A DNA stretch of 64,000 bases from Eledone cirrhosa (Eukaryota). A program made the translations under genes and the position numbers. The notes below the pieces were generated by a model that saw nothing but the letters and a program-made list of their open reading frames with translations, was not told the DNA's origin and ran no database searches. The stretch spans positions 306,094,001 through 306,158,000 of the forward strand of contig OZ024741.1 in NCBI GenBank assembly GCA_964016885.1. The letters are read 5' to 3'. Shown here piece by piece: positions 18,544 through 63,986 of this stretch (positions are counted from its first letter, which is position 1; the number at the start of each line of letters is the position of its first letter).

Positions 18544-18644
18544 TATATATATATATATAAATAAATAAATATGTATATATATATATATAAATATATATAT
18601 ATAAATAAATATGTATATATATATATATAAATATATATATATAA

Positions 18645-19236: not shown

Positions 19237-19339
19237 AATAATAATTGTTTCTACTTTAGGCACAAGGCCAGCAATTACCCAGTACATTACTGGTACTTTA
19301 TTTTATCGACCCCGTTAGGATGAAATGCAAAGGTAATAA

Positions 19340-22101: not shown

Positions 22102-23026
22102 ATGGACTGCATGCAGGAAAAATGTGAAATCAGGAGTCAGCGAAACTGGTCAAAGATGGAACTAGCGGTTTTGATCAAGGGGTGGACCATGGCTGATGGG
22201 TCCCCACCAAGCAAAAAGATGGCGGAGAACCTGAAGAGCCATGGGTTTCTGAGGACCCTGGCACAGATAGAGAGAAAGAGAAAAGAAATTGAGAAGGCGT
22301 ATGTCCTCATAGCGCCTCATATGGCGATGCTAAGCCGTGTCCTCAGGGAGGGATGAGGAGAAGGAGAGGGAAGAGGAAAAAGAAAAAGAAAAGGAGGAGA
22401 GCACAAGCACGGACCTGAAAGAAAATGATATACCCTCCGCCACAGGCAAGGAGGGCAGGCAGGGCAACCAACAAGCTAAGGGCAAAGGTGAAAAGCGAAA
22501 TCACCCTCCGAAGGAGAACCAAGCGCAGAGGGACCAGTGGACAACTGTTCAAAGAAAGAACAGAAAGCACCGAGACACTGGGAGCAAAAAACCCCAAGTA
22601 ATGTGCAAGTTTTTCAAGAACGGGACATGCTGGCATGGAGAGACAGGGATGGGATGCAGATTCGCCCACCCTAGGTCTCAAACGAACTATGCCCATCATA
22701 CTCGCGCAACATGCCCCAGCCAAAGCCGAAATAAGCCGCTCCAGAAGTATGCTGATGTCGCGCGTGCTGCACCAACAAGGAGAAGGCACGCACATGCCGA
22801 CGAGATACAGATGGCAGCAGCAGATCAGAAAAAATTTTTAGTGATGGCAGAGAAGATTGTGGGACAGCTGACCTGGCTGCATCGTCTCCAGAGCCAGGGT
22901 CATCCACACCAGCACTCGAGACCACCGCTGTTAAGGGACCCAGAGTGGCCGCCGCTGACACCAGACCAGGTGTCATACCGACAGCCATTACTGGCACCCC
23001 AAAAGTCACACCAGTGCTGCTGCTGA
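22102..23026 (+). pseudogene. LINE ORF1 with CCCH zinc finger, apparent frameshift at ~22350
   Basis: ORFs 22102-22356 and 22337-23026; CKFFKNGTCWHGETGMGCRFAH (C-x7-C-x8-C-x3-H). Confidence 0.7.
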
Positions 23027-27111: not shown

Positions 27112-27170
<59 letters not shown>

Positions 27171-27321
27171 ATACTTTGGGAGGGTCATGTTGCCAATAAG
27201 AAACACACGCACCAGTTGCTTTCACTTCAATTTAATTTATTATATATTTATAAATTTACAAATTTATAAATTTCTGGTTGGTTGGTTGGTTCCACAACCA
27301 GATAGTTGTTTATATATATAT

Positions 27322-27366
27322 AGTCATAGTTCTTTCGTCACACACTCTGTGACCTCTTCAGTGACT
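27322..27366 (-). ncRNA. Minimal type I hammerhead ribozyme (PLE-A pLTR)
   Basis: agtca CUGAAGA g gtcaca-gagtg-tgtgac GAAA gaac UA tgact. Confidence 0.8.
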
Positions 27367-27671
27367 GGGGATTTCTTTCTTCGTTCCTGTGCCTTTCCTT
27401 TCTTCTATCCTACGCCATTTTGTTTGTGTGTGGGTTGCGTGCTCCGTTTGCGCATGCGCCACATCCGGGTGTCTGTGTGTGTTTGTGTTCATTTTTCTAT
27501 TTTTCTATTTATATTTTTCTATTTGTTTGTTTATTTATTTATTTATTGTTGGTTGGTTGTTTGTTCTATGTGTGTGTGTGTTTTCATTTTGTCTTGTGTG
27601 TGTTTTCATTTTGTGTGTGTTTTCAATTGTAAGTTGTTTGTTCTATGTGTGTGTGTGTTTTCATTTTGTCC

Positions 27672-30381
27672 TTAATTGTAAGTTGTGATGTTGCTGTTCC
27701 ACTCATATTTTCTATTTAATTTTGGTTTTAATTCTTTTATGCTTACTGCCTCTGTAATTTGCCGAAACATTGCGTCTTTCTTGTGTGTGGATTCTATTTT
27801 TATTTCTATGCTCTCTAATTTACCCCTGTGTTCTATCTTAGCATGTTGGTAGAGCACAGATGATTCTTTATTATCTTGGAGGTCTCGCCAGTGTTCATTT
27901 ATTCGTTCCCCTATACTACGAGCTGTCTCACCTATGTACACTATATTTTTGTTTCTACATTGTCCTTCAGTACATCTTATGCTATATACTACATTTCTAG
28001 TTTTACAGTTAATATGGGGGCTTATTTTACAGGTTATACATTTCTTATCTATACATGAGGGTCTTTGGAACGGGTATGTCTTGCTAATAAGTGTTTTTAC
28101 GGAGGTACCAGGTCTTTCTACTATCTTAATATTGAGATTATGTTTCTTTAGGGCCCTTCTAAATTTGTAGGCTAGTTCGCCTCTAGGGGTTGTATTGATG
28201 AACATTACACTCTGGTATTTATTGCTATCATACCATGAGTTTATTCTATTGGCCTTGTTCTTAGTTCTTTCTATTCTATTCCAAAATTTGCTCCTATACA
28301 AGGGGCAGGTCCCATTTATGTCATTATTTACCATTTTTTCCCATTTGGTTCTGGCTCCTTTATACACTCTGATTCTATCTCTCTGATTGTAGCCAGAGAA
28401 CTGCATACGGTGGATGAAGTGTTGTATGTGTCTCTCTAGTTCTTCGGGGTTGCACATGCGGGACACATTTCTCATCACCCGTACCAAATCCGCAATCAGT
28501 ATGTTGATTTTGGTATGGTCCGAAATGGCCGAGTTTCGGTGGATCAGATGTTTGGAAGTCATGGGTTTGGCATAATGGGAATGGAGGATTTGTTTTTGGT
28601 TGTTAATTGTATCTAACCAGAGCTCTGTGTCTAGTACAGGTAATCGATGGTTGGGGTGTCTACTTGGGTAGTCTATAGTAACTCTAATGCTCTGGTGGAT
28701 GGAGTTTGCTATTTGCTGGATGCTTTCCATTGTGTTTTTCTCTAGTTCCTGACTGTTCTTTAGTGGGGGTGTCTTAACTACGATGTTTATATCATCTACG
28801 TAGCGGGAGTACATTATCAGGGTTAAGCTGTCTTCTAATTGTTCATTAAGTTTTTGTTTAAGTCTACTGTCCCACCATACCATGAATAAGTTAGCTATGT
28901 CGCCTGCAATGCTAACACCAATGGCTGCTCCTTCCTCTTGGGCATATGTTTTACCATTAAATTTGAACATATGTTCCTTAAGGGTTAATTTTATGCTGGC
29001 CCCTACCGCATGTGCAATCATTTTCTTCAGTTCATCGTGGTTTTCGGGTGTCCGTATGGCTCTGGTTCACTCGTTCCATCTATCTGTGAGGGTTTTCTTG
29101 GCCATTGAGGTAATGGTAGGTGGTCTGCCTCTTGCTGGTCTTGTAGGGCACATGTTGCTAAGGTCATAAGTGTCTAGGTAACTATTACTATGGGTAAGCT
29201 TAAGTAGAAGTCCCAGCTCACTGGTATCAATCCCACGGAACTCAACCTTGCTCTCGCTGATCATTTCGACGCATTTCTCCACAGCAAAATCCACGTCAAT
29301 AGATGGATACAGGGACACAACATCCATACTGCCTATTATGCAGTTTGTTAGGTCCCCAGATCGGTTACCCGCGCCGATTCTGCTGAGGAGGTCCTCCGTG
29401 CTGTCACACACATCTGGGGACATCTCAATGATGGGGCGTATGATCAGGGAGAGGAAGTAGGACAGTCTGTAGTTACTAGCAATGTTAGCCCCACAGACTG
29501 GCCGTGTTGGTGGTCCCGCGACAGGGTCCCAGCCCGTTTTATGGTCTTTTCGAAGCCCATACAACGCCGGCACGTCATTGTTCCAGGCCTGGAAGTTGTT
29601 GGCAGTCCTTTTGTTGGGCTGCATTATATTTGTCCACATCACCATATGGGCATTGAGGGTTTTTTTCTCTATCCTCATGCTCCTGTGGTGTTACCTCTCT
29701 TGTGTTAGTGATGTGGGGTTGCATTGCCTGGATGTAGTTTGGCAGGCTGTCAACCGACATTCTGCCAGACTTGTCTGTTGGAAAGCATGCTATCTCTCCA
29801 TTACGCGAGCGCTGCATGAGCTTACGCAAGCCATTTGCAGATTCTTCTCCCAGTTGCTGGGCCTCTATTCTATTATGCTTCTTGCTATACTGTTCTATAA
29901 TATTTCTAAGTTCGGATTTAGCTATACTAAATTGTGCTTCTGTTTGTTCATCGACCTGCGACGGCAACTGCGTGCGTTTGTTAAATGGCAAAGTCGTGGC
30001 GTGGACTCGTCGTAGGTCGAATGATTTATCGGAGGGGTTATAAAACGGAGAGTTCCAGGCTGGTGCTTTATGTGTACTAGTGCTATTGTTATTGTTAGTT
30101 GTGTTGTTTCTATTTCCACCAACAGCAGCAGCCTCAGCTTCATGGTTGTTTCTATGTCTCTCATAATTACTCCTGTCTCTTTCCACTGGCTCAATGTTGT
30201 TATCTACCCTATTTTGTGTGTCTGTGTGTTCGTCTTGGTTATTCTCTTTGTCCTTAGTCTCCCATCTCCTTCTCCTTTTTATCCTATTACTTTCTCTTAT
30301 TTCTCTGATTTCTGTGCTACTGTCATTACTTGTTTTCTGTGTCTGTGTGTTTGTTAAGATTGTGGTGGTGGTGAGAGGCAT
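27672..30381 (-). pseudogene. Penelope-like RT + GIY-YIG ORF, interrupted by a frameshift (~29680) and a TGA (29067-29069)
   Basis: PTDKSG, GSMDVVSLYP, QEEGAAIG, RYVDD, NVVYSIRC...YIGET...R..EH. Confidence 0.9.
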
Positions 30382-30872
30382 TGAATGCGTGTGTGTTGTT
30401 GTTGTTGATGTGTGTTGTTGTTGTCTCCGTGTGTGTGTGTGTTATCGTTGTTGTGTGTGTTGTTGTTGTTGTTTGTGTTTGTGTGTCTGTTGTTGTTGTA
30501 TCTGGGTATGTTGCTATTGTTGTTGTTGTTGATGTGTGTGTTGTTGTTATTGTTGTCTCCGTGTGTGTTGTTATTGTTGTTTGTGTCTGCGTGTCTGTTG
30601 TATCTGGGTATGTTGCTATTGTTGTATCTGGGTATGTTGCTATTGTTGTTGTTGTATCTGGGTATGTTGCTATTGTTGTTGTTATTGTTGTTTGTGTCTG
30701 TGTGTCTGTTGTTGTTGGGATGTGTGTTGTATATGTGTGTGCGTATATTGTTGTTTTTGTTTTTGTTTTTGATGCTCCAGCGTAGTTTCGTAAATGATTT
30801 TTCTATTTCTGACAGACAACTAATCATATTTACCTTCTTGAATGTCGCAAAAAATTAACCCTTAAGGAACAT

Positions 30873-32171
30873 ATGTTCAAATTTAATGGTAAAACATATG
30901 CCCAAGAGGAAGGAGCAGCCATTGGTGTTAGCATTGCAGGCGACATAGCTAACTTATTCATGGTATGGTGGGACAGTAGACTTAAACAAAAACTTAATGA
31001 ACAATTAGAAGACACCCTAACCCTGATAATGTACTCCCGCTACGTAGATGATATAAACATCGTAGTTAAGACACCCCCACTAAAGAACAGTCAGGAACTA
31101 GAGAAAAACACAATGGAAAGCATCCAGCAAATAGCAAACTCCATCCACCAGAGCATTAGAGTTACTATAGACTACCCAAGTAGACACCCCAACCATCGAT
31201 TACCTGTACTAGACACAGAGATCTGGTTAGATACAATTAACAACCAAAAACAAATCCTCCATTCCCATTATGCCAAACCCATGACTTCCAAACATCTGAT
31301 CCACCGAAACTCGGCCATTTCGGACCATACCAAAATCAACATACTGATTGCGGATTTGGTACGGGTGATGAGAAATGTGTCCCGCATGTGCAACCCCGAA
31401 GAACTAGAGAGACACATACAACACTTCATCCACCGTATGCAGTTCTCTGGCTACAATCAGAGAGATAGAATCAGAGTGTATAAAGGAGCCAGAACCAAAT
31501 GGGAAAAAATGGTAAATAATGACATAAATGGGACCTGCCCCTTGTATAGGAGCAACTTTTGGAATAGAATAGAAAGAACTAAGAACAAGGCCAATAGAAT
31601 AAACTCATGGTATGATAGCAATAAATACCAGAGTGTAATGTTCATCAATACAACCCCTAGAGGCGAACTAGCCTACAAATTTAGAAGGGCCCTAAAGAAA
31701 CATAATCTCAATATTAAGATAGTAGAAAGACCTGGTACCTCCGTAAAAACACTTATTAGCAAGACATACCCGTTCCAAAGACCCTCATGTATAGATAAGA
31801 AATGTATAACCTGTAAAATAAGCCTCCATATTAACTGTAAAACTAGAAATGTAATATATAGCATAAGATGTACTGAAGGACAATGTAGAAACAAAAATAT
31901 AGTGTACATAGGTGAGACAGCTCGTAGTATAGGGGAACGAATAAATGAACACTGGCGAGACCTCCAAGATAATAAAGAATCATCTGTGCTCTACCAACAT
32001 GCTAAGATAGAACACAGGGGTAAATTAGAGAGCATAGAAATAAAAATAGAATCCACACACAAGAAAGACGCAATGTTTAGGCAAATTACAGAGGCAGTAA
32101 GCATAAAAGAATTAAAACCAAAATTAAATAGAAAATATGAGTGGAACAGCAACATCACAACTTACAATTAA
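30873..32171 (+). CDS. 5'-truncated Penelope-like RT C-half + GIY-YIG endonuclease
   Basis: Open 432-aa frame with 5 aa differences from the minus copy. Confidence 0.85.
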   Translation: MFKFNGKTYAQEEGAAIGVSIAGDIANLFMVWWDSRLKQKLNEQLEDTLTLIMYSRYVDDINIVVKTPPLKNSQELEKNTMESIQQIANSIHQSIRVTIDYPSRHPNHRLPVLDTEIWLDTINNQKQILHSHYAKPMTSKHLIHRNSAISDHTKINILIADLVRVMRNVSRMCNPEELERHIQHFIHRMQFSGYNQRDRIRVYKGARTKWEKMVNNDINGTCPLYRSNFWNRIERTKNKANRINSWYDSNKYQSVMFINTTPRGELAYKFRRALKKHNLNIKIVERPGTSVKTLISKTYPFQRPSCIDKKCITCKISLHINCKTRNVIYSIRCTEGQCRNKNIVYIGETARSIGERINEHWRDLQDNKESSVLYQHAKIEHRGKLESIEIKIESTHKKDAMFRQITEAVSIKELKPKLNRKYEWNSNITTYN

Positions 32172-32476
32172 GGACAAAATGAAAACACACACACACATAG
32201 TACAAACAACTTACAATTGAAAACACACACAAAATGAAAACACACACAAGACAAAATGAAAACACACACACACATAGAACAAACAACCAACCAACAATAA
32301 ATAAATAAATAAACAAACAAATAGAAAAATATAAATAGAAAAATAGAAAAATGAACACAAACACACACAGACACCCGGATGTGGAGCATGCGCAAACGGA
32401 GCACGCAACCCACACACAAACAAAATGGCGTAGGATAGAAGAAAGGAAAGGCACAGGAACGAAGAAAGAAATCCCC

Positions 32477-32521
32477 AGTCACTGAAGAGGTCACAGAGTG
32501 TGTGACGAAAGAACTATGACT
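32477..32521 (+). ncRNA. Minimal type I hammerhead ribozyme (PLE-A pLTR)
   Basis: Same motif as 27322-27366. Confidence 0.8.
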
Positions 32522-32672
32522 ATATATATATAAACAACTATCTGGTTGTGGAACCAACCAACCAACCAGAAATTTATAAATTTGTAAATTTATAAATATA
32601 TAATAAATTAAATTGAAGTGAAAGCAACTGGTGCGTGTGTTTCTTATTGGCAACATGACCCTCCCAAAGTAT

Positions 32673-32747
<75 letters not shown>

Positions 32748-32822: not shown

Positions 32823-36345
<3,523 letters not shown>

Positions 36346-36348
<3 letters not shown>

Positions 36349-37170
36349 CGGAACACAGCTACACAGGACCAGGAGGGACCGATATCCCCGTGTCAAAATC
36401 GATACGAGACCTGGGCATAGACATGAGCGATGATGCATCATTTTCTTCACACATCATGAAGGTGGCGACAGCATGTAGACGATTCGCTGGCTGGATCTTG
36501 AGGACTTTCCTTACAAGAGATCGAGACACCATGTTGACACTGTGGAGGACTTTTGTCCTAAGCCGCCTGGACTACTGCTCCCAGTTGTTGTCACCCCATA
36601 GTGTCAAACTAACCACAGAGCTTGAGGCAATCCAGCGAAGCTACACCAAGAGGATTGCCAAGATGAGGGAGACAAGCTACTGGGAGAGGCTGAAGGAACT
36701 GAACCTCTACTCCTTGGAGCGAAGACGGGAGAGATACGCAGTGATCTACATGTGGAAAATCCTGGAGGGACTAGCACCAAACTTTGGCATTGGGAGCTGG
36801 ACCAACCGTCGAACAGGACGTCACTGTGTGGTGCCAAAGGTCCCGTCTTCCACATCTAGAATAAGGAGCAGGTATTGCAATAGTCTGGGATTCAAGGGCC
36901 CTCAACTCTTCAACAGGCTGCCGAGGCATCTGCGAGTCTTGCATGACGTGGAGGTGGATGTCTTTAAGAAACATCTCGACACCTTGTTATCCAGGATCCC
37001 GGATGAACCACAGCAAGACACGAGGGAAACCTAAGGGCAGCAGCAACAAACTCCCTCCTACACCAGTGGCCAACCTATACAGGCTGGAGATAAAATGTGT
37101 AGCAACAAGGGCGGTGCCCCAGCATGGCCTCAGCCGGATGGCTGAAACAGGTAAAAGAGTAAAAGAGTAA
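36346..37170 (+). mobile_element. 5'-truncated copy of the 21427-26052 LINE
   Basis: Near-identical to ~25221-26040, including stem-loop and tail. Confidence 0.92.
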
Positions 37171-40112
<2,942 letters not shown>

Positions 40113-41020: not shown

Positions 41021-42090
<1,070 letters not shown>

Positions 42091-42106
42091 ATATATATAA
42101 ATATAT

Positions 42107-42175
<69 letters not shown>

Positions 42176-42186
42176 TATATATAAAT

Positions 42187-42217
<31 letters not shown>

Positions 42218-42220
42218 AAT

Positions 42221-42252
<32 letters not shown>

Positions 42253-42264
42253 GTATATATAAAT

Positions 42265-42296
<32 letters not shown>

Positions 42297-42339
42297 GTAT
42301 ATATAAATATATATATATATATGTATATATAAATATATG

Positions 42340-42399
<60 letters not shown>

Positions 42400-42402
42400 A
42401 AT

Positions 42403-42434
<32 letters not shown>

Positions 42435-42446
42435 GTATATATAAAT

Positions 42447-42478
<32 letters not shown>

Positions 42479-42490
42479 GTATATATAAAT

Positions 42491-42522
<32 letters not shown>

Positions 42523-42534
42523 GTATATATAAAT

Positions 42535-42566
<32 letters not shown>

Positions 42567-42641
42567 GTATATATAAATATATATATATATAAATATATAC
42601 AATATTAAATAAATGGAAAACTATATTTATAAAACCATATC

Positions 42642-42707
42642 TATTTCATTATATATATTTCGGGGATATCATATTAACAATATGCTATGCCTTCATCAGA
42701 CAAAATA
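42642..42707 (-). ncRNA. Type I hammerhead ribozyme (PLE-B), canonical CUGAUGA core
   Basis: Reverse complement reads tattttgt CTGATGA aggcatagcatattgttaatatgatatcccc GAAA tatata TA atgaaata. Confidence 0.8.
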
Positions 42708-43076
42708 CAATATAAACAGTTTTATAGATAAATATATTCGATATACCGTAATAAACATCAACTTCATTTGATGAGGTTTACTCTAGCAGTGAAAATACAG
42801 AGAGAAAGAAAGAGAGAGAGAAAAGAGGGAAATAAGAAAGAAAGACAAAACGAAGAAAAGGAAGAAAAAGAAGAAAAAGAAAAAGAAGAAATGCATGGGA
42901 CAAAATAGAGAGATGGAAAAATATATAAAGCGAAGAGCTTCATGTAAAGAGACAGAAAGATATATATATATATATAGAGAGAGAGAGAGGAAATAGAGAT
43001 AGATACATATATAAATATAGATATAGAAAAATTAGGTAGTGGGAGGTCATTTTGAGTAAGTGTATCAATGATGCAT

Positions 43077-43111
<35 letters not shown>

Positions 43112-44243
43112 GCTCAAGTATTAATGTAAGGGAGATATATAGAGAGATATAGAGAGATATAGAGAGAGAAAAAATTTAAAAATAGCCAGACATATTCGAG
43201 GCGTAGAAAACCCTATGTTTTAATGTATTAGTATTTATAAAACTTACACTATATTGTAAATATCAGTATTCCTGGATGAAACAAGTATTCACAATGCGTG
43301 AAAATTCATTATCTTATGTTTAGTTTTTTAAAAAATTCATATGTCTATGTGAATCCAACTGATTCACTCCGCAAATTCAAAGTTACCGGAAAACATTCTC
43401 AATGTGGTATAAAAATTTGAGCGTATTATTATTCTTGCGATTACTCTACAAGATTATCTATCAAGCAGAAATAGAGAGCAGATTTCAATATACTAATCGA
43501 AAATATATATTATATTATAAGCAGAGATAACAATAATAATGATAATAAGTAAAAATATATAAAAATATAAAAATATAGAATAGAAAACTAAAAAAGAATA
43601 TTACGAAAGAATATTACATAATAAAAATATTGCATATTAAAAATACTACGTATTAAAAATATTACGTATAAAAATATTAAAAATATTACATATAAAAATA
43701 TTAAAAATAAAAATTTACATATAAAAATATTAAAAATAAAAATAAAATAAAATAAAAAATAAAAATATTATAGAATACTACAATACTAAAAGAATAAAAA
43801 TAAAAATAAAAATAAAAATAAAAATAAAAATAAAAATAAAAATGAAAATAAAAATAAACCACAAAGAACAACCCTTCAAAGTTAATTGACAATATATTGC
43901 CAAGTTCACTACAAGACAAAGCCAAAAATTATCTATCAAATCACATCTAGCAAGGAATATCGCAAAGAAGATTATGATGTCCAATAATGTCTACATATGT
44001 TCCTATATTTAATATATAAATATATAAGTTTATCAAGTGTAAGGTTAATTCAAAAAATTTGGAGCATCGGCTTTTAGGGTAGCTTAATTTTTCATGAGGA
44101 ATGTTTAGATAAAAATAAAAATAAAAATAAAAATAAATAAAATAAAATAAACAATAAAAAGAGTAAAAAGAGGGAATCAAAGATTTAGGAATCAAAAGAT
44201 TTATCGGCTAGTTCTCATATAAATATAAATCAAACTAAATATA

Positions 44244-45764
44244 CTACATTTTAAATTTAAATTTATATTTAAACGTTGAGTTTAATCTATGTTTGCAACA
44301 ACTGAATAAATTTGTCCGTAGGTTAAGGGAATTTTTAGATTTTAGTATAAAGAATATCTCCTCTGCGCAGAGGTCACATGTCTCAGAGGATGAATTAAAA
44401 GGAATCCCTCTTGAGACTATATTCCAAGCCGTCGAATATCTAACGTTATCTAGCTTAAGTTGCCAGAGTACACCTGATAGTGCCGTTGAAGATTTTTTAT
44501 TTGGATCTGTGAAAGAATTCTTGTGGTTATTATAGCGAAGTTTAAATTCCGTCGATGTGGAACCGACGTAGTTAAAAGAATTAGAGTCAGTATTAACATT
44601 ACAATTGTATACTATATTTTTAACTAAGCAGTTGTTATTTAACGGACATTTAGATCTATCTCTACAGTTACATTTGTTAACTTGTATATTATTTATGCTA
44701 TTATCAGTAGGTTTTAAGTTCCTATTATTTATTCTATTAATATTTTGTGCTAAATTTTTGGTGGATGAGTAGGTTAATTTAATTGTATGCCTATTGAAGA
44801 TTGAGTGGTACCTATGTGTTCTAGGGAAGCGATTATCAAGAGCTTTGAAAAATAATTTAGCGATGTGGGTTTTAATGTTTAGTGAGAAAGGGGGGGCAAA
44901 CCAAATTATGTTCCTAGTTCTATTTCTTTTTTGTCCTTTGGAATTATTGTAATGCTTTCTATTATAGTTGTTAATGTTGTTGCCGTAATTAAAAAAGTTG
45001 TTACTTTGTTTAGTTTGTTTATCATTATCTATGTACACAATCTTATCAGCATACCCTACCCTAGCTAGTGCATCATTATAGTATTGGGCCTTTTCGTCAA
45101 AAATCTTTCTATTCGACGAGATCCTAGAGATACGTTTTTGGACTGAGTTTACTATAGTGTTTTTGACAGATCTGGGGTGGTTAGAGTTAAAGTTGACATA
45201 GTTTAAGTTTTCATTCAACTTGCGAAAAGGATAGTGGAGACATGTGTTGAGATTTAATGTTATATCTAGGAAATTGACTATTCTATGGTTGTTCTCAATT
45301 TCTATTTTAAGGTTAAAGTAATTAAAAAATTTTGTAATTTGTTTACCTTTTCTATTTAGTTCAGGGTTATTATTATTAATAAGTAAAAGCATGTCATCCC
45401 TATATAAACCTCCGGTAGTACCAGGTATTTTCCTATGTAGCGAATTGATTAAAAATAAGCCCACAAGGTCAGTTACCTGAGCTGAGTCGGAAGATCCCAT
45501 AGTTATGTCAAAATTGCTATCTCTATCTGCTCTGGTCCATAATTTGTCATCAAATTCTATCAAAGTTTTCCTAGCCGATAATATAATATGCATTTCTTTG
45601 CTAGTTAGGTCCGTATGTTTGAATGCGTAATTTAGTGCCTTATTTAGTAGACTAGGGGTAATAGAAGAATAATAGTTAGCTATATCAAGTTGAATAAACC
45701 TATTATTATTGTCATATTTAATTTGCCTAAACCACTCAACAACCTCTCCAGTTCCCTTCCACAA
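44244..45764 (-). CDS. Penelope-like RT + GIY-YIG (family B), open but 5'-truncated
   Basis: [27 protein letters not shown], linker CNCx5Cx5[20 protein letters not shown]...CKH. Confidence 0.88.
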
Positions 45765-45777
45765 GCTCAGGTTAGAT

Positions 45778-48274: not shown

Positions 48275-48970
48275 CAGATGTACAGGGAAATTAGACAGTA
48301 GAAGTCGCACTGATAGACACATTTTTTAAATGCGAGACGGCGCTATAGAAGTGGTGGATAGCTTCCGGTACCTAGGAGATCAGATTAGCATGGGAGGAGG
48401 GTGTTCCGAGGTCATAGTATCTAGAATAAGGACGGGTTGGAAGAAGTTTAGGGAGCTGCTTCCTCTGTTGACGAAGAAGGGTTTCTCCCTGCGTACGAAA
48501 GGCCGGTTGTATGATGCCTGTGTGAGGAGCGCGATGCTGCATGGTAGTGAGACATGGGCAGCAACCGCAGAGGATATGCGACAGCTGGAGAGAATGAGGC
48601 AAGCATGCTCCGTTGGATGTGCAGTGTAAATGTGCGTGAACGACCCAGCATAAATGTGTTGAGAGAGAAACTGTGTCTGAGAGGGATAGAATGTAGTGTA
48701 CGGGAGAGGAGACTGAGGTGGTATGGACATGTGATGCGCATGGAGGATGACCGATGGGTGAAGAAGTGCCAGGAAATGCCAGTTGAGGGAAGACGTGGTA
48801 GAGGTAGACCACGAAAAACATGGGCGGAGGTGGTGAGAACAGACCTCAGATCATTGAAGCTCACGGTGGAGATGACTCGGGACCGTGACGAGTGGAGAGA
48901 TGCTGTGCTGAATAAGACCCGTCCCACCCTTGCAAGCAGGGAAAAGCGGACGTAAAATGATGATGATGAT
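48275..48970 (+). mobile_element. 5'-truncated RTE-clade LINE 3' end
   Basis: FRYLG, LHGSETW, RRLRWYGHV, RGRGRPRKTW; (ATG)n tail; one frameshift. Confidence 0.9.
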
Positions 48971-48991
48971 GTTTATATATATATATATAAT

Positions 48992-50373: not shown

Positions 50374-51288
50374 GTCCTGGGTATGACATTAAACTACATC
50401 CAGTGGCAAGGCTCCAGTTCGGGAGTTCAGGAGATGTGGGGAATGTGGAGTTACCCCTTAGTTGTCATGACTCCCAGGTCTGCCCTGGCCCGGGGTGGTA
50501 GTACCTGTTAGGGCTCCATTTATGGGTTAAATAACTACCTTATTCGAGTGGCGCCGGTAAGGTATTGTCAGCCATTGAAAAGAAATATGGAGAGTCGATC
50601 TAACAGCACTAGGGTTAGAGCCCCTAATTACACTGTCAAGGAGCAGCCTGGTCGTTATGACTCTGCTGGCTTAGAGCCACAGAGAGGGCCAGTGGATGAT
50701 GGATCAGCTGTCTCTGAGACAAATATAGAGAATGCAGTTTTGTCCTGCAGAAGAGCCATCAAAATGGGCACTTTGAATGTGAGGACGCTGGAGAAGATAG
50801 AGGAGTTGGGACATCTGTTCGAGGAGAGTGGTATACAGATACTTGCGATCCAAGAACACAGGATTCTACACGATGAGCCCGTGAGGAGTGTAATGATCGG
50901 GAAGAAGAGCCAGCTCATCACTACATCGGCAGTAAAGAACACAACAAATGCTGCAGTAGGAGGAGTGGGTTTTGTGTTCAGTGCAAAAACCAATCTGTTG
51001 GTGAGGGAAATAATGCCTATCTCCCCGCGAGTGTTGAGGGTGACCTTCCATGGAAACCCAAGACTGACAGTCATCTCAGCCTATAGTCCAACCGAGGGGG
51101 ACAGTGATGTGAATGCGGAAGAGTTCCATGAGGAGGTGTGTAGAGCTGTCAACGCCACTCAGGCACACAATATCCTGCTTGTTTTGGGGGACTTCAATGC
51201 ACATCCGAGTAAGGAGGGCAGTGAAGATCCTTGCTGGTACTTCCATAACAACACCAACCGAAATGGAAGACTACTGAGAGACACCCTG
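50374..51288 (+). mobile_element. RTE-like LINE 5' part (5' UTR + AP endonuclease)
   Basis: GTLNVRTL, LAIQEHR, GGVGF, SAYSPT, LGDFNA, NRNG. Confidence 0.85.
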
Positions 51289-54217
51289 ATAACAACAATA
51301 GCAACACACACAACTATGACGATAGATATAATGACAACCCCTTAGAGAAACTATTTTTCAACCCAGCTGACAAAACATATAAGATGGGTAATATCTATCC
51401 TACGAGGTTACTCTTTAATAAAAGATTTTGCATACCACAACAAATAGATGACGAGACAGAGGCACAGTTCACCATAGCTAGAAATAAGATTAGACAAATA
51501 GTAGACAGGTATACTAAGAGACAGAGCAGACCAGAGGCCCAACAACTTGGGAGGAAACCTGTAGAAGGCTTGGTTAGCCTCAAGCAGCGCACAAGGGATG
51601 GTGAGGTAGTGTGTCTACCCACAGATAAGTCTGGTAGGATGTCAATAGATAGCATGCCGAACTACATCGAGGCTATGCAACCCCACATCACCAGCACGAG
51701 CGAAGTTGCACAACAAACACACGATGGGATAGAAAAAATCCTCAACGCTCACATGATGATGTGGACTGACATCCTAAAGCCAAGCAGACGCACTGCCAAC
51801 AACTTCCAGGCGTCTAACAATGGCATACCGCCCTTGTATGGGCTCCGCAAAGACCACAAGACAGTCGACGACCCGACAACAGGACCACCAACAAGACCCG
51901 TATGCGGAGCTAATATAGCTAGCAACTACAGGATCTCCTACTTCCTCTCAATGGTTATACGCCCCATAATCAAGATGTCCCCAGATGTATGTGACAGTAC
52001 AGAGGACCTACCCAGCAGAATCAGTGAGTGCAACAAAAACAGGAGCCTATCCAACTGCATAATAGGCAGCATGTATGTGGTGTCACTGTACCCATCCATT
52101 AACATTGATTTTGCTGTGAAAAGATGTGTGGAGATGATCATTGAGAGTGAGGTGGAGTTCTGCGACGTCGACACAGACGAACTGGGCCTCCTACTTAGAC
52201 TTACCTACGACACTGACTACCTAGACAGCCATGACCTTAGATGTTTCTGCCCTAGTAGACCTATAAGAGGTAGACCCCCCACCATAACCTCAATGGCAAA
52301 AAAGACTCCCATGGGAAGGTGGATTGGGTGGACCAAAGCTATACGGGCCCCTCAAAACAATGATCAGGTAAGAAAAATGGTCGCACATGCAATAGGGGCT
52401 AGTATCAAAACTACCCTAAAGGGCCACATATTTAAGTTCAATGAGAAAATCTACACCCAAAATGAGGGAGCAGCCATCGGCGTCAGCATAGCTGGTGATG
52501 TTGCCAACCTTTTCATGGTATGGTGGGAAAGGAGACTTAAAGATCTCCTTAATGAAAGCTCCATAGACCTCATCATGTACTCTCGTTATGTATACGATAT
52601 CAATATAGTTATAAGAACACCCCCACTAGAGAGCACTAACAAGTTTGATTTAGAACGTAGCACGATGGAAAGCATCCAGCAGATAGCTAATTCCATACAC
52701 CAGAGTATAACTGTAACTATAGACTTCCCTTCCAAATACCCTAACAATAGACTACCTGTATTAGACACAGAACTCTGGATTAACACTATAGACGAGAGAG
52801 CCCAAATTCTCCACTCACACTATGCTAAACCCATGGCCTCCAAATACCTGATACTCAAAAACTCAGCAATGTCCAGTAGTGCTAAGTTTAATATTCTGAT
52901 CGCAGATTTGGTACGAGTGATGAAGAATGTGTCCCGCATGTGCGACCCAACAGAAATGGAAAGACACATCCAACACTTCATCAACCACACGCAGTTCTCT
53001 GGCTACAACCAAAGAGACAGAGTCAGAGTATACGAAGGAGCCATGGAAAAGTATAAGACCCTCATAGAACTGGACATGAAAGGAATTTGCCCATTATACA
53101 GGAGCAAATCATGGAATAGCTTAGATAGGGCTAGACATAAGATAGGGAAAGCCACCTCATGGTACGACAACCAGAGATACCAGAGTGTAATGTTTGTGGA
53201 CGCTACCCCTGGAGGGAAATTAGCTAACCAGTGTAGAAAGACCCTGAGAAAGACCCACTTAAAGGTGGTAGAAAAGCCAGGAACCACCATAAAATCCCTG
53301 ATCAGCAAAACCTACCCTTTTAAGAAAACCCACTGTACCAATAGGAAATGTATCATATGTAAGGTGAACCCCCGGATAAACTGTAAAACTAGAAACGTAG
53401 TCTATAGCATAAGATGTACAGAGGGTACTTGCAGAAACATGATACATAGGTGAGACAGCTCGTAGCATAGGTGAAAGGATAGACCAACACTGGGGGGACT
53501 AAAAGGACGAAAAAACGGGTCAGTACTATACGAAAATGCTAGACAACAACATGACGGTAACATAGACAACATAGAAATTAGAATAATACCTAAACATAGA
53601 AATGACCCAGCAGATAGGCAAATCAGAGAGGCCAGTGAAATAGAAATTAGAAGACCAAGGCTAAACAGAAAAAATGAATGGAATAACAACAACACCCAAA
53701 CAAACAACACTGACCTAAGAGAAATATAAATAAGTAAATAAAATAAAATAAAATAAATAAATAAATAAATACATACACAAGCACAATAACAAGCACATAA
53801 ACACACACTAGTCACCCATCACACAGCAAACAAAACACTATACACACACGCAAACGCATGCGCAAAGAAGACAAAATAAAATAAACAAACAAGCAAATAA
53901 ATAAATAAATATATAGACAGACTGAATAAAAAATGGCGTAGACATACAACACAATAGGAGGAAAATATAACACCACTGACGATGTTGGAGATGTGCAACG
54001 AAAGATTTATGATAAACTATATACACGTGTTTGTGTCTATATTGTATCTGTATTAATTTTGACCGTCGGTCAGTCAATGGCAACATTCAGGACCGAGTAA
54101 GTTAGATTACCGATATAAAAGACACAGAAGCGAGAAGCGAAAACTAACCAAACAGTGAGTGTGTTCTGTTATTAATTCTGGCAATACTACACAAATATGA
54201 CCCTCCCCAAGTATAAC
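51289..54217 (+). pseudogene. Diverged, inactivated Penelope-like family A relative
   Basis: ORF 51384-53453 is homologous to 27672-30381; catalytic Asp changes (SMYV, YVYD); frameshift before YIGET; 3' end atgaccctccccaagtataac. Confidence 0.88.
53972..54013 (+). ncRNA. Diverged hammerhead motif
   Basis: acca CUGACGA t gttg..caac GAAA gatt UA tgat, at the position homologous to 32477. Confidence 0.6.
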
Positions 54218-54571
54218 TATATATTTATTCATATATATATGTTTATTTATATATATATATGTTTATTTATATATATATATGTTTATTTATATATATATAT
54301 GTTTATTTATATATATATATATGTTTATTTATATTTATATATATGTTTATTTATATTTATATATATGTTTATTTATATATATATTTATTTATATATATAT
54401 ATGTTTATTTATATATATATATATGTGTATATATATATATATATGTTTATTTATATATATATATATGTCTATATATATATATATATATATGTTTATTGAT
54501 ATATATATGTGTATATATATATATATGTTTATTTATATATATATATATATGTTTATTTATATATATATATA

Positions 54572-55789: not shown

Positions 55790-55860
55790 TATAAATATAT
55801 ATATATAAATACATAAATATATATATATATAAATAAATATATATATATATAAATAAATAT

Positions 55861-56816
55861 TTCGTTTCTGAATTTGTTTAGCAAGATTCTTTATCTGAAA
55901 TCGTGTGTTGAAACCGATATTGTTATACTTTGGGAGGGTCATGTTGCCAATAAGAAACACACGCACCAGTTGCTTTCACTTCAATTTATTATATATTTAT
56001 AAATTTACAAATCTACAAACTTATAAATTTCTGGTTGGTTGGTTGGTTCCACAACCAGATAGTTGTTTATATATAGTCATAATCCTTTCGTCACACACTC
56101 TGTGACCTCTTCAGTGACAGGGGATTCCTTTCTTTGTTTCTGTGCCTTTCCTTTCTTCTATCCTACGCCATTTTGTTTCTGTGTGTGTGTTGTGTGCTCA
56201 GTTTGCGCATGCGCCACATCCGGGTGTCTGTGTGTGTTTGTGTTCATTTATCTATTTGTTTATTTGTTTGTTTGTTTGTTTGTTTATTTATTTATTTATT
56301 GTTGGTTGGTTGTTTGTTCTATGTGTGTGTGTGTTTTCATTTTGTCCTGTGTGTGTTTTCATTTTGTCCTTAATTGTAAGTTGTTTGTTCTATGTGTGTG
56401 TGTGTTTTCATTTTGTCCTGTGTGTGTTTTCATTTTGTCCTTAGTTGTAAGTTGTGATGTTGCTGTTCCACTCATATTTTCTATTTAATTTAATTTAATT
56501 TAATTTTGGTTTTAATTATTTTATGCTTACTGCCTCTGTAATTTGCCTAAACATTGCGTCTTTTCTGGCGTAGGATAGAAGAAAGGAAAGGCACAGAAAA
56601 AAGAAAAGAATCCCCAGTCACTGAAGAGGTCACAGAGTGTGTGACGAAAGGAGTATGACTATATATAAACAACTATCTGGTTGTGGAACCAACCAACCAA
56701 CCAGAAATGTATAAGTTTGTAGATTTGTAAATTTATAAATATATAATAAATTGAAGTGAAAGCAACTGGTGGGTGTGTTTTTTATTGGCAACATGACCCT
56801 CCCAAAGTATAACAAT
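55861..56816. mobile_element. Short inverted pair of PLE-A termini, two hammerheads (56076-56118 -, 56616-56660 +)
   Basis: Minus arm 55861-56565, plus arm 56566-56816; both tails face TA. Confidence 0.85.
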
Positions 56817-58464: not shown

Positions 58465-58650
58465 AATATATATATATAAATAAATATATATATATATAAA
58501 TAAATATATATATATAAATAAATATATATATATATATATATAAATAAATATATATATATATATAGATAAATATATATATATTCATAAATATATATATATA
58601 AATAAATATATATATACATAAATATATATATAAATAAATATATATATATA

Positions 58651-58850
58651 GTTATGTAATAAACCACATAAGGTAATTATTCCATTTACCAGTGGTTTCT
58701 TAAAAGCAAAAAATTTTTTCATCAGAATGAAAAAATCCTGGTCTATTTATTGAATTGGATTCTTAAAAAACGAAAATGCAGTCTATATGAAAGTGAGGCT
58801 GGAGAAGGAAGAAGGAAAGAAAAAATAAAATAAAAACACACACATACACG
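58651..58850 (-). mobile_element. Hammerhead-bearing short element family D, stem II partly deleted
   Basis: Homologous to 62642-62855. Confidence 0.7.
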
Positions 58851-59030
58851 ATAAATAAATATATATAAATATATATATATAAATAAATATATATATATAA
58901 ATAAATATATATATATATATATAAATAAATATATATATATATATTTATTTATATATATAATTATATATATATATATATTTATTTATATATATATATGTTT
59001 ATTTATATATATATATATAAATAAATATAT

Positions 59031-60120
59031 GGAAAGTTATATTTAAATTGTTGGGTTACAACTAGTAAATATTAATAACTGATATAAAAGCACTCGACAA
59101 GTATTTGGAGTATATTTACGATATTAAATAAATGGAAACTATATTTATAAAACCATATTTATTTCATTATATATATTTCAGGGATATCATATTAACAATA
59201 TGCTATGCCTTCCTCAGACAAAATACAATATAAACAGTTTTATAGATAAATAGATTTGACATACCGTACAACATCGACTTGTATTTGAAAAGTTGAATTG
59301 GCAGTGAAAAAATTGTAAACAGAAAGAAAGAAAGAGAGAAAAAAAAGGAAAGAAAGACAGAAAACGAAGAAAAAGAAGAAAAAGAAGAAATGCATGGAAC
59401 AAAATAGAGAGATGGAAAGATAGATAAAGAGAAGAACTTCATGTAAAGAAACAGAGAGAGATATATATAGAGAGAGGAAATAGATAGAGATAGAAATATA
59501 TATAGAAAAATATGTAGTTGGACATCCGTTGAGTAAACGTATCAATGATACATTTATTTATTTATTTATTTATTTAGCTCTAGTATTAATGTAAGGGAGA
59601 TATATGTGGTTAGGAGAGAAACCAGCTGTTATATAGAGAGAAAAATGAAAAGTAACCAGACATAGGCGAGGCATAAAAACCCTATGTTTTAATGTAGAAG
59701 TATTAATATGTATAAAAACCAGGCACTATATTGAAAATATCAGTATTCCTGAATGAGACACATATCCATAATGTGTGAAAAGTAATGATCTTATGTTTAG
59801 TTTTAAAAAATTCATATGTTTATATGATAACTACAAACATCGATGTGAATTTACATGATCAACTCTGCAAACCCTAAGTTCACACAGAAAACATTCTCAT
59901 TGTGCTATAAAAATTTAAGTATACACATATGTGTATATATATACACATATATATATAGAATCTATATTACTACTATTCTTGTCTTTACTCTACAAGATTA
60001 TCTATCAAGCAGAAATAGAGTGCAGATTTCAATATATTAATAAAAAATATATCAGAAACAAAAACCAAAAAACAACAATAATAATAATAATATTAATAAA
60101 TAAATAATAATAAAATAGAA
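59031..60120 (-). mobile_element. PLE-B 3' non-coding region with hammerhead (59160-59225) and extended tail
   Basis: Reverse complement of ~39000-39981 plus ~90 extra nt. Confidence 0.85.
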
Positions 60121-60399: not shown

Positions 60400-60977
60400 A
60401 ATAAATATATATATATATATAAATAAATATATATATATATAAATAAATATATATATAAAGATAAATAAATGTATATACTCTTTTACTTTTTACTCTTTTA
60501 CCTGTTTCAGCCATCCGGCTGAGGCCATGCTGGGGTACCGCCCTTATATATATAAATAAATATAGATATATATATAAATAAATACATATATATATAAAAA
60601 TATATAAAATATATATATATATATAAATATATATATATAAATAAATATATATATATAAATAAATATATATATATATAAATAAATATAAAAACAAATAACG
60701 AAACGAAATTAAATTTCGTTTCGCTTCTAACTCACTTTTGTATGACTGACGCTTAAACAATTAAGTTAAAGTGTATATCTACATATGTATACGGAAGTAC
60801 TAGTATGCATATAAATACACACATGTATACATATGTACATGTACTGAGTTTTTCACTAGACACTTTACAGTGAGTGTCCAGCTAGTCTGTATGTAACCAA
60901 ACAGACGAACCGGGTTTTAAAGTCATACGAGTTTTCAAGGAAACACACTTCCTCTATTCTCCAGAGAGCCAGACAGG

Positions 60978-61022
60978 AATATTGGACTAGTTTCGATGTT
61001 ATTACATCTCATCAGCAATATT
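60978..61022 (-). ncRNA. Minimal type I hammerhead ribozyme
   Basis: aatattg CUGAUGA gatgt-aata-acatc GAAA ctag UC caatatt. Confidence 0.92.
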
Positions 61023-61585
61023 TACCTATCTTCCGGCTTCTCTAGAGAATTGTAAAAGCACATATCGTTATATGCTTTTTCTATGAAAATTAGTAGTGGG
61101 CAGACTAATTTGCATAGAACGTGAGTCATTGTACGCACCGGTTCAACGGAAACGATATTCCTGTCTGGCTCTCTGGAGAATAGAGGAAGTGTGTTTCCTT
61201 GAAAACTCGTATGACTTTAAAACCCGGTTCGTCTGTTTGGTTACATACAGACTAGCTGGACACTCACTGTAAAGTGTCTAGTGAAAAACTCAGTACATGT
61301 ACATATGTATACATGTGTGTATTTATATGCATACTAGTACTTCCGTATACATATGTAGATGTACACTTTAACTTAATTGTTTAAGCGTCAGTCATACAAA
61401 AGTGAGTTAGAAGCGAAACGAAATTTAATTTCGTTTCGTTATTTGTTTTTATCGTTTCCGCTGAATCGGCGCGTACAATGACTCACGTTCTATGCAAATT
61501 AGTCTGCCCACTACTAATTTTCATAGAAAAAGCATATAACGATATGTGCTTTTACAATTCTCTAGAGAAGCCGGAAGATAGGTAT

Positions 61586-61628
61586 ATATTGCTGATGAGA
61601 TGTAATAACATCGAAACTAGTCCAATAT
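61586..61628 (+). ncRNA. Minimal type I hammerhead ribozyme
   Basis: atattg CUGAUGA gatgt-aata-acatc GAAA ctag UC caatat; predicted cleavage after 61622. Confidence 0.92.
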
Positions 61629-62490
61629 TCCTGTCTGGCTCTCTGAAGAATAGAGGAAGTGTGTTTCCTTGAAAACTCGTATGACTTTAAAACCCGGTTC
61701 GTCTGTTTGGTTACATACAGACTAGCTGGACACTCACTGTAAAGTGTCTAGTGAAAAACTCAGTACATGTACATATGTATACATGTGTGTATTTATATGC
61801 ATACTAGTACTTCCGTATACATATGTAGATGTACACTTTAACTTAATTGTTTAAATAAATATATATATATATATATAAATAAATATATATATATAAATAA
61901 ATATATATATATAAATAAATATATATATATAAATAAATATATATATATAAATAAATATATATATATAAATAAATATATACATATAAATAAATATATACAT
62001 ATGAATAAATATATACATATAAATAATATACATATATATAAATAAATATATATATAAATATATACATATATAAATAAATATATATATATATAAATATATA
62101 CATATATAAATAAATATATATATATAAATATATACATATATAAATATATACATATATAAATAAATATATATATATAAATATATACATATATAAATAAATA
62201 TATATATATATAAATAAATATATATATATAAATAAATATATATATATAAATAAATATATATATATAAATAAATATATATATATATATAAATAAATAATCA
62301 TATATATATATATAAATAATCATATATAAATAAATATATATATATATAAATATATATATATATAAAAAATATATATATATATAAATAAATATATATATAT
62401 ATATAAATAAATATATATATAAATAAATATATATATAAATAAATATATATATATAAATGAATATATATATAAATGTATATATATATATAA

Positions 62491-62603: not shown

Positions 62604-62667
62604 TATATATATATATATAAATAAATATATATATATATATAGTCATGTAATAAACCACATAAGGTAA

Positions 62668-62733
62668 TTTTTCCATTTACCAGTGGTTTCTTAAAAGCAA
62701 AAAATGTTGCTTTCAATCATCAGAATGAAAAAA
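62668..62733 (-). ncRNA. Type I hammerhead ribozyme (family D, element 62642-62855)
   Basis: ttttttcatt CUGAUGA ttgaaagcaa-catttt-ttgcttttaa GAAA ccactgg UA aatggaaaaa. Confidence 0.85.
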
Positions 62734-63165
62734 TCCTGGTCGATTTATTGAATTGGATTTTAAAAAAACGAAAATGCAGTCTATATGAAAGTGAGGCTGG
62801 AGAAGGAAGAAGGAAAGGAAAAATGAAATAAACACACACACACACACACACACGATAAATATATATATATATATATAGATATATATATATAAATAAATAT
62901 ATATATATAAATATATATATATATAAATATATATATATTTATTTATATATATAATTATATATATATATATTTATTTATATATATATATGTTTATTTATAT
63001 ATATATATATATAAATAAATATATATATATATATTTATTTATATATATAATAATATATATATATATAAATAAATATATATATATATATTTATTTATATAT
63101 ATAATAATATATATATATATATTTATTTATATATATATATGTTTATATATATATATATATACATA

Positions 63166-63986
63166 TATAAGTATGTACACGTACATACATATATATATAT
63201 ACAGACGTACAGTAGTATTTATATATATATACATACATGCACACATATAGATATGTACGTATGGATTCACCAAACATTTATTATAATGCTCGCTGTGTTT
63301 GTAAACAAACATTCCATATTAAGCCGTAGTGTCCAGCAACCATCGTTGCTCGTTTGTTCAACACTGACAAAGGAACGCTGTACTAGTTTCAAGCTTATTA
63401 GCTATCGTCAGCAACGTATACCTTCCTGCCAGATTGTTGAACGTATATACTTACCTTATGCATATTAACGGCGTAGTAGCCCAATTTGCATATCGAGTGG
63501 GTTAATCGGCCGGGTGCACCGAAAACGATAAACGGAAAAAATGAAACAAAATTTCATTTCCCACTCTTTGTACGGCTGTTACTTAAATATAAGTATGTAC
63601 ACGTACATACATATATATATACAGACGTACAGTAGTATGTATATATATATAGATACATGCGCACATATAGATATGTACATACAGATATATGAAGATAGCT
63701 AATAAGCTTGAAACTAGTACAGCGTTCCAGTGTTGAACAAACGAGCAACGACGGTTGCTGTACACTACGGCTTAGTACGGGATGTTTGTTTACAAACACA
63801 CCGAACATTATAATAAATGTTCGGTGAATCCATACGTACATATCTATATGTGTGCATGTATGTATATATATATACATACTACTGTACGTCTGTATACATA
63901 TATGTATGTACGTGTACATACTTATATTTAAGAAACAGCCGTACTAAGAGTGGGAAATGAAATTTTGTTTCATTTTTTCCGTTTAT
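63166..63986. mobile_element. Retrozyme-like non-coding element, 422-nt monomer
   Basis: Minus tandem array 63166-~63680 (period 422) plus inverted arm 63690-63986. Confidence 0.82.
63375..63417 (-). ncRNA. Minimal type I hammerhead ribozyme
   Basis: acgttg CUGACGA t agct-aata-agct t GAAA ctag UA cagcgt. Confidence 0.88.

What the first reader, a model, noticed from the sequence alone, without database searches (positions are those of the whole stretch)
63166..63986. Second, related 422-nt retrozyme-like family with covarying hammerhead
Seen: 422-nt period (63171 vs 63593). The hammerhead keeps the same AATA loop II and ACUAGU stem III as the 470-nt family, but stems I and II differ while still pairing (acgttg/cagcgt, agct/agct). 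The inverted arm starts inside the catalytic core (63690) and ends at tttat|cgttt, the same junction at which the inverted 470-nt monomer ends. Inference: conserved structure with diverged sequence indicates selection on the ribozyme and a shared mobilisation mechanism, so this may be a diversified family.
Basis: partly seen in the sequence, partly recalled or inferred. Interest (0 to 1): 0.8.

Follow-up and report, generated by a model that had tools for sequence, protein, structure and literature searches.

The report
Ribozyme repeat bearing Penelope insertion signatures
This is one copy of a very abundant ~420-base repeat that encodes no protein and carries a predicted self-cutting RNA (a retrozyme, a known kind of element); its insertion ends match those of Penelope-type retrotransposons, which likely copy it around the genome.

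Summary
Window 63166-63986 is a head-to-head insertion (about 1.2 + 0.7 units) of an ORF-less ~421-nt repeat with a type I hammerhead on the minus strand. It is homologous to the neighbouring 470-nt family also outside the ribozyme (about 65% identity).

The genome holds 40,289 cores of this hammerhead lineage (5 in the control), in several subfamilies. Compensatory changes occur in stems I and II and in a long-range helix outside the ribozyme.

Copies show Penelope-like (PLE) signatures: 5' truncation, partial tandems, (TA)n targets and two fixed 3' ends 56 nt apart. In 24 of 25 inverted insertions one end has the tail and the other does not. That the inverted arm starts in the catalytic core is incidental.

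Verdict: new member of a known kind (non-LTR retrozyme), likely mobilised in trans by a (TA)n-targeting PLE. The partner PLE was not found; cleavage and circular RNA are untested. Interest 0.4.

The parts
63166..63678 (-). Arm 1: about 1.2 monomers, sense on the minus strand, 5'-truncated, ending at the 'short' 3' end in (TA)n
63375..63417 (-). Type I hammerhead motif: stem I 63417-63412 / 63380-63375, core CUGACGA 63411-63405, stem II with U·U at its base and loop AAUA, GAAA, palindromic stem III ACUAGU; predicted cut between 63381 and 63380
   Evidence: activity untested
63364..63430 (-). Predicted extension of stem I with a conserved UAU x U internal loop (candidate loop I-loop II contact; role inferred from recalled type I hammerhead architecture)
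63484..63491 (-). ATGCAAAT (octamer; name recalled), conserved across subfamilies; candidate promoter element, or constrained by pairing
   Evidence: TATGCAAAT in 91 of 104 distinct monomers (row sums); 10 of 11
63528..63583 (-). Internal copy of the 56-nt tail, ending at TTTAT|CGTTT
63679..63689 (.). 11-nt filler at the inversion junction
63690..63986 (+). Arm 2 (inverted): 0.7 monomer, begins inside the core so its hammerhead is incomplete, ends at the 'tail' 3' end in (TA)n
63766..63943 (+). Predicted long-range 7-bp helix P (63766-63772 with 63937-63943); its 3' strand lies in the first part of the tail; three compensatory changes between subfamilies
63931..63986 (+). Terminal 56-nt tail, between the two preferred 3' ends, holding a predicted hairpin
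   Evidence: the hairpin alone is not stabler than shuffles in this family (z -0.26)
60685..61854 (.). Neighbouring insertion of the related 470-nt family: minus arm with tail end, plus arm with short end

Best explanation
This is a dispersed and tandem, protein-free ~421-nt repeat with a predicted type I hammerhead in each unit (a non-LTR retrozyme), likely copied into (TA)n tracts by the enzyme of a Penelope-like element acting in trans. Shown: unit structure, copy number, subfamilies, two fixed 3' ends, (TA)n flanks, 5' truncation, head-to-head inversions with one tail end and one short end. Inferred: (1) tandem copies are transcribed, perhaps from an internal octamer-containing promoter; (2) the hammerheads cut, probably best as dimers given the palindromic 2-bp stem III and U·U-weakened stem II, and monomers are ligated to circles; (3) a Neptune- or Hydra-type PLE endonuclease nicks both strands of a (TA)n tract; (4) its reverse transcriptase primes one strand at the tail end and the other at the short end, guided by the structure around helix P; (5) synthesis runs through the cut site, often for more than one unit, so the template is a circle (I put 55%) or an uncut multimer; (6) the two cDNAs join by microhomology. 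Long arrays likely then grow locally.
For: Copies: 40,289 cores vs 5 control; 25,270 of the window's U·U/AGCU type vs 0; a tandem array of at least 25 kb on C21. 3' ends: 66 of 80 family-A arms end at one of two sites (37 tail, 29 short), 60 of these 66 in TA-rich flanks; 470 family 39 of 43, 37 of 39. Head-to-head inversions in 25 of 54 and 14 of 27 loci. Of the 25 inversions with both ends canonical, 24 have one tail and one short end (binomial p 1.5e-6 against 0.5); 14 further inversions had a non-canonical or cut-off end and were left out. Most junctions overlap by 1-8 nt. These are the PLE hallmarks as published: partial tandems, adjacent inverted 5'-truncated copy, tail at one end only, (TA)n bias (PMC8557442, passages; PMC3846280, passages); the tail equals the stretch between two RT start sites (PMC11167929, parts 1-2 of 4). 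49 of 80 A arms exceed one unit and 5' ends do not pile up at the cut site (1 of 82 within 3 nt, 1.4 expected), which excludes a cut linear monomer as the main template. Circular folds are far stabler than shuffles (z -6 to -12 for 7 monomers, 15 shuffles each). One clear 13-bp target duplication at a non-TA site (L152). PLE ORFs with Neptune-like and Hydra-like motifs lie in the same window (motifs as). Class and PLE link proposed in PMC7229834 and bioRxiv 10.64898/2026.07.22.740005.
Against: No partner PLE found: no PLE ORF joined directly to a monomer in the 6 loci read by eye among the tblastn hits from 95 and then 135 loci, and no clear likeness to the 3' regions of the window's PLEs (best local scores 24-29, no shuffle control). 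The minimum-energy fold of the window's hammerhead region does not form the catalytic junction and is not stabler than shuffles (z -1.28, 24 of 200). Rfam does not recognise it. Two of five covariation measures did not beat shuffles (98 and 371 of 500). In published work 8 of 9 predicted Xenopus retrozymes did not cut in vitro, and ribozyme cutting was not needed for PLE insertion in vitro. The tail (56 nt; 68-74 in the 470 family) is longer than the published 30-40 bp. Units within one insertion are no more alike than between loci (2.9-3.2% vs 3.3%), so circle and multimer cannot be told apart. In the 470 family 10 of 43 5' ends lie within 20 nt of the cut site (3.75 expected, p 0.005). Loci were the best hits to the window's copies, not a random sample.
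Confidence: 0.8

Rival explanations
1. Same PLE-driven spread, but the template is an uncut linear multimeric transcript of tandem arrays; the hammerhead and circles play no part in mobility (a variant of the best explanation, not exclusive of its other steps).
For: Long arrays exist; arms cross the cut site freely; unprocessed RNA was the main substrate for a PLE in vitro; U·U base and weak stem III predict slow monomer cutting.
Against: Stems I and II covary between subfamilies; stem III is almost invariant (287 matches with another letter at one position, under a longer pattern); a second U·U family also keeps a palindromic stem III, ACGCGU. This points to selection on the ribozyme in source copies.
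Confidence: 0.35
2. The units are solo pseudo-LTRs: 5'-truncated ends of an autonomous PLE not yet found.
For: PLE pseudo-LTRs carry type I hammerheads and give the same ends; retrozymes resemble pseudo-LTRs in Xenopus.
Against: 49 of 80 A arms and 29 of 43 B arms are longer than one unit and continue into another monomer. The PLE ORFs inspected near copies were separate neighbours, mostly across TA tracts. The hammerhead has full helix I and II lengths, unlike the minimal PLE type.
Confidence: 0.07
3. A satellite DNA spread by DNA-level processes (unequal crossover, extrachromosomal circles), or a SINE-like element moved by a LINE.
For: Long homogeneous arrays; LINE ORFs also sit beside TA tracts in the window.
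Against: Two fixed internal 3' ends with variable 5' ends, and the one-tail rule, are not expected from DNA-level spread; LINE priming works from the RNA 3' end (established knowledge) and does not give two divergent arms each with a fixed end.
Confidence: 0.06

Closest known systems
Non-LTR retrozymes of coral, mussel and axolotl (Cervera and de la Pena 2020, PMC7229834; parts 2-4 of 6 and passages read, supplement not readable)
   Same: Small low-GC tandem units, one type I hammerhead each, no ORF, strongly self-paired predicted circle, tens of thousands of copies, PLEs in the same genome. Axolotl HHR_Amex2 also has a U·U mismatch at the base of helix II and cuts better as a dimer.
   Different: Monomers are 410-500 nt against 170-400 nt. 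The parts read describe no tails, inverted arms or (TA)n targeting. Here cleavage and circles are untested.
Vertebrate non-LTR retrozymes as non-autonomous PLE derivatives (Li, Clavereau, Pollet 2026, bioRxiv 10.64898/2026.07.22.740005; parts 1-3 of 5 read, supplements closed)
   Same: Same class and same proposed mobiliser; monomer, dimer and multimer forms.
   Different: Their evidence is co-occurrence and pseudo-LTR likeness; the word 'tail' occurs 0 times in that text. Here the evidence is the insertion ends, while likeness to a PLE pseudo-LTR was not found. No mollusc was sampled there.
EN+ Penelope-like elements, Neptune and Hydra clades, and non-autonomous Chlamys elements (PMC8557442, PMC3846280, PMC11167929; passages or parts read)
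   Same: Partial tandems, 5' truncation, adjacent inverted copy, tail at one end, (TA)n bias, two start sites.
   Different: No RT or GIY-YIG ORF; longer tail; hammerhead of full rather than minimal type.
Newt satellite 2
   Same: Hammerhead-bearing tandem repeat reported to have an internal snRNA-type promoter (seen only as a citation in PMC2220036). That this promoter includes an octamer is recalled.
   Different: No promoter test here; the original paper was not held.

Membership tests
Non-LTR retrozyme | Type I hammerhead motif in each repeat unit | tested here: met
   Rfam models did not reach threshold
Non-LTR retrozyme | Short tandem units, dimers to multimers, GC below 50% | tested here: met
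   median 421 nt, GC 0.37; arrays; at the upper end of the published size range
Non-LTR retrozyme | No protein coding, no LTR structure | tested here: met
   only two low-complexity stop-to-stop frames of about 130 aa overlap it; arms run monomer into monomer; PBS and PPT were not searched separately
Non-LTR retrozyme | Stable self-paired circular monomer (predicted) | tested here: met
   circular MFE z -6.1 to -12.3; part of this comes from a TA-rich hairpin
Non-LTR retrozyme | Target duplications longer than 4 bp when present | tested here: inconclusive
   one clear 13-bp case among 78 insertions; the rest are masked by (TA)n
Non-LTR retrozyme | Self-cleavage in vitro | not testable with these tools
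   needs a transcription assay
Non-LTR retrozyme | Expression as linear and circular RNA | not testable with these tools
   the runs available were contigs of unknown kind
Autonomous EN+ PLE | ORF with RT and GIY-YIG endonuclease | tested here: not met
PLE-mobilised element | Partial tandems with 5' truncation and adjacent inverted copy | tested here: met
   inversions in 25 of 54 and 14 of 27 loci
PLE-mobilised element | Tail at one end only (two start sites) | tested here: met
   24 of 25; length 56-74 nt against 30-40 published
PLE-mobilised element | Microsatellite target bias | tested here: met
   60 of 66 and 37 of 39 canonical ends in TA-rich flanks
PLE-mobilised element | Terminal likeness to an autonomous partner | tested here: inconclusive
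   none with the window's PLEs; other PLE families were not surveyed
Plant LTR retrozyme | Type III hammerhead in two LTRs | tested here: not met
   type I topology, tandem units

The most novel reading that the evidence does not exclude
These protein-free ribozyme repeats carry a conserved RNA element (helix P and the tail) that makes a Penelope enzyme prime the two target strands at two different fixed sites on a circular template, one site per strand. The family would then be a minimal 420-nt natural substrate that both shows PLEs mobilise animal retrozymes and defines the recognition signal.
Probability: 0.4. Interest if true: 0.65.

Novelty: new member of a known kind. Interest (0 to 1): 0.4.

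Why it matters
Which enzyme moves animal retrozymes has been argued from co-occurrence and sequence likeness. Here the insertion ends themselves carry PLE signatures in large numbers, with a near-strict one-tail rule and a covarying helix beside the start sites. That gives a small, testable substrate for PLE target-primed reverse transcription and for asking whether ribozyme circles are true intermediates. It also marks about 40,000 hammerhead cores, plus about 9,900 of a second family, for repeat annotation of this genome. The class, the U·U variant and the PLE hypothesis are all in print.

Tried and rejected
Rfam scan: 0 matches. Meaning of the inverted arm starting in the core: rejected, 5' ends are spread over the monomer. 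U·U at the base of stem II as a novelty: rejected, described for axolotl HHR_Amex2. Cut linear monomer as main template: rejected for family A. Circle versus multimer by within-insertion identity: uninformative. Partner PLE: not found. Pfam on four PLE ORFs gave one sub-threshold RVT_1 match. Sequencing runs: no RNA holder listed. Contigs of four runs of unknown kind, labelled organisms A, A, B and C, cover parts of the element (11,320, 137, 29 and 3 records laid); this shows presence only. Metagenome contigs: 0 matches to a hammerhead pattern. Homology of the 310-nt ACGCGU family to A or B: not shown (scores 46 and 44, shuffle maxima 49 and 52). Earlier findings of the scan: nothing. Literature searches: (retrozyme, hammerhead, octopus, cephalopod, Penelope; hammerhead ribozyme, octopus, tandem, retrotransposon; non-LTR retrozyme, tail, inverted, microsatellite, Penelope) listed no paper on this family or on tails in retrozymes; listings only, open-licence library only. 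One search was uninformative. PMC13282606 (passages) has 0 mentions of ribozyme; PMC9977147 (passages) added only a non-autonomous PLE pair. Unseen supplements of PMC7229834 and the bioRxiv preprint may list related elements.

Full report
OBSERVATION. The window holds two divergent arms. Arm 1 is sense on the minus strand from 63678 to 63166 (about 1.2 units). Arm 2 is sense on the plus strand from 63690 to 63986 (0.7 unit). An 11-nt filler lies between them. The 422 spacing is right at 63171/63593, with a 2-nt indel in a TA run. A motif scan finds a type I hammerhead at 63411 on the minus strand, with the predicted cut after 63381. Arm 2 begins inside the core and cannot form a ribozyme. Rfam has no match.

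COPIES AND SUBFAMILIES. A DNA search gave 1,172 first-look candidates, and the best copies are 96-97% identical. The pattern CTGANGA-N12-16-GAAACTAGTH has 40,289 matches against 5 for the control. Of the U·U/AGCU type there are 25,270, and 1,644 have A or C at the base of stem II. Copies are mostly 1-2 units; 7 of 80 arms exceed two units; one array spans at least 25 kb. Natural monomers cluster near 415-435, 466-470 and 490-500 nt. Divergence between loci is about 3.3% for A and 1.1% for the 470 family in these biased samples.

RELATION TO THE 470 FAMILY. BLAST aligns the two at 64-65% over about 650 columns. Outside the hammerhead the 5' part scores z 16.1, the 3' part z 4.4 (local 3.1) and the TA-rich hairpin z 4.6 against 300 shuffles. 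They are homologous along the whole unit.

COVARIATION. On 14 chosen hammerhead variants, 92.9% of cells pair (shuffled 80.9%, 0 of 500; slid controls at most 49%), and 8 of 18 pairs change on both sides. Two of five measures did not beat shuffles. The rows are related, so this is a handful of events and not a significance test. On 11 whole monomers RNAalifold found 75 pairs, 19 with a change on both sides. Among them is a 7-bp long-range helix (P) with 77 of 77 cells paired and three compensatory positions in different subfamily sets. Its 3' strand lies at the start of the tail. Stem III does not covary in this lineage. A separate 310-nt family of about 9,900 cores has ACGCGU there, again a palindrome, as dimer folding needs (PMC4209133, part 1 of 4).

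THE U·U PAIR. The AGCU lineage lacks the usual G-C at the base of stem II; U·U or C·A dominate (which counts overlapping loci more than once). This was reported for axolotl HHR_Amex2, which cut weakly as a monomer and well as a dimer. The window's hammerhead region does not fold into the catalytic junction by minimum energy.

INSERTION ENDS. In 54 A loci (overlapping loci removed; L164 and L165 are one duplicated insertion), 66 of 80 arms with a visible 3' end stop at one of two sites 56 nt apart, and 60 of these abut TA-rich DNA. In 27 loci of the 470 family the figures are 39 of 43 and 37 of 39. Head-to-head inversions occur in 25 of 54 and 14 of 27 loci. Where both ends are canonical, 24 of 25 have one tail and one short end (p 1.5e-6); 14 inversions had a non-canonical or cut-off end. 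The window's two insertions both follow the rule. 5' ends are spread over the monomer: 1 of 82 A arms starts within 3 nt of the cut site (1.4 expected), and 49 of 80 exceed one unit. The 470 family shows a mild excess within 20 nt (10 of 43, p 0.005). One 13-bp target duplication is clear among 78 insertions.

MECHANISM. Partial tandems, an adjacent inverted truncated copy, a tail at one end and (TA)n bias define EN+ PLE insertions. In vitro the tail is the stretch between two internal RT start sites, and both target strands are cut and extended. The repeat has no ORF, so I infer copying in trans by a PLE, with one strand primed at each site and the cDNAs joined by microhomology. The template spans the cut site, so it is a circle or an uncut multimer; I favour the circle at about 55% by analogy with PMC7229834, and could not separate them. 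PLE ORFs with Neptune-like and Hydra-like motifs sit in the window (my assignment from motifs), but none shares ends with the repeat, and PLE ORFs near other copies were separate neighbours in the loci read. A conserved ATGCAAAT upstream of the ribozyme may be a promoter element, as an snRNA-type promoter is cited for newt satellite 2; it also lies in a predicted hairpin, so this is a lead only.

COMPARISON AND VERDICT. The sequence-level features of non-LTR retrozymes are met, apart from target duplications, which are inconclusive; cleavage and circular RNA could not be tested. It is not an autonomous PLE and not a plant LTR retrozyme. The class and its PLE link are published. My searches listed no paper on this family or on tails in retrozymes, within an open-licence library and without two supplements. 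What this adds is quantitative end-signature evidence and a candidate recognition helix. New member of a known kind; interest 0.4.

Noticed in passing
window 27167-29690 (-), 30813-32680 (+), 55860-56810: PLE family with a CX4CXXC linker (Neptune-like by motif) and its own hammerhead at 27361, 32482 and 56621. The solo structure at 55860-56810 has one arm with a ~60-nt tail and one without; the tail reads as a possible ORF start.
   Followed up: partly
window 37366-39981 (+), 42600-45770 (-), 59030-59330 (-); L034 1558-3069: PLE family with Hydra-like motifs, a long 3' region, a hammerhead-like motif at 39882, 42699 and 59217, and a ~90-nt tail; inserted in (TA)n.
   Followed up: partly
window 51249-54220 (+): Third, decayed PLE with a hammerhead-like motif near 53980.
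   Followed up: no
window 62640-62855 (-) and 58650-58850 (-): Short ~200-nt repeat ending in (TA)n with a hammerhead-like motif at 62723 and 58725 (long stem II region); possibly another truncated PLE end.
   Followed up: no
L097 9134-10000; L196-L207: Separate 310-nt retrozyme family: about 9,900 cores (includes some stray mutants of family A), U·U at the base of stem II, loop AANA, palindromic stem III ACGCGU, long near-identical arrays and inverted arms; looks very young.
   Followed up: partly
L121 2522-2885: Inverted-repeat element with another hammerhead (U·U base, GAAA loop, palindromic stem III AGUACU); seen at one place only.
   Followed up: no
G000:C21:33956000-33981200; G000:C1:95629554-95686995: Satellite-like arrays of family A (at least 25 kb) and of the 470 family (matches over about 57 kb); both have an inverted stretch at one end.
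   Followed up: partly
window 22334-25969, 36303-37034, 41232-42620, 18631-19323, 48372-48972: LINE-type ORFs (endonuclease and RT domains by eye) and truncated copies, several flanked by (TA)n; the window is a nest of TA-associated retroelements.
   Followed up: no
L164 and L165: Same insertion with identical flanks 750 kb apart on C1, likely a segmental duplication.
   Followed up: no
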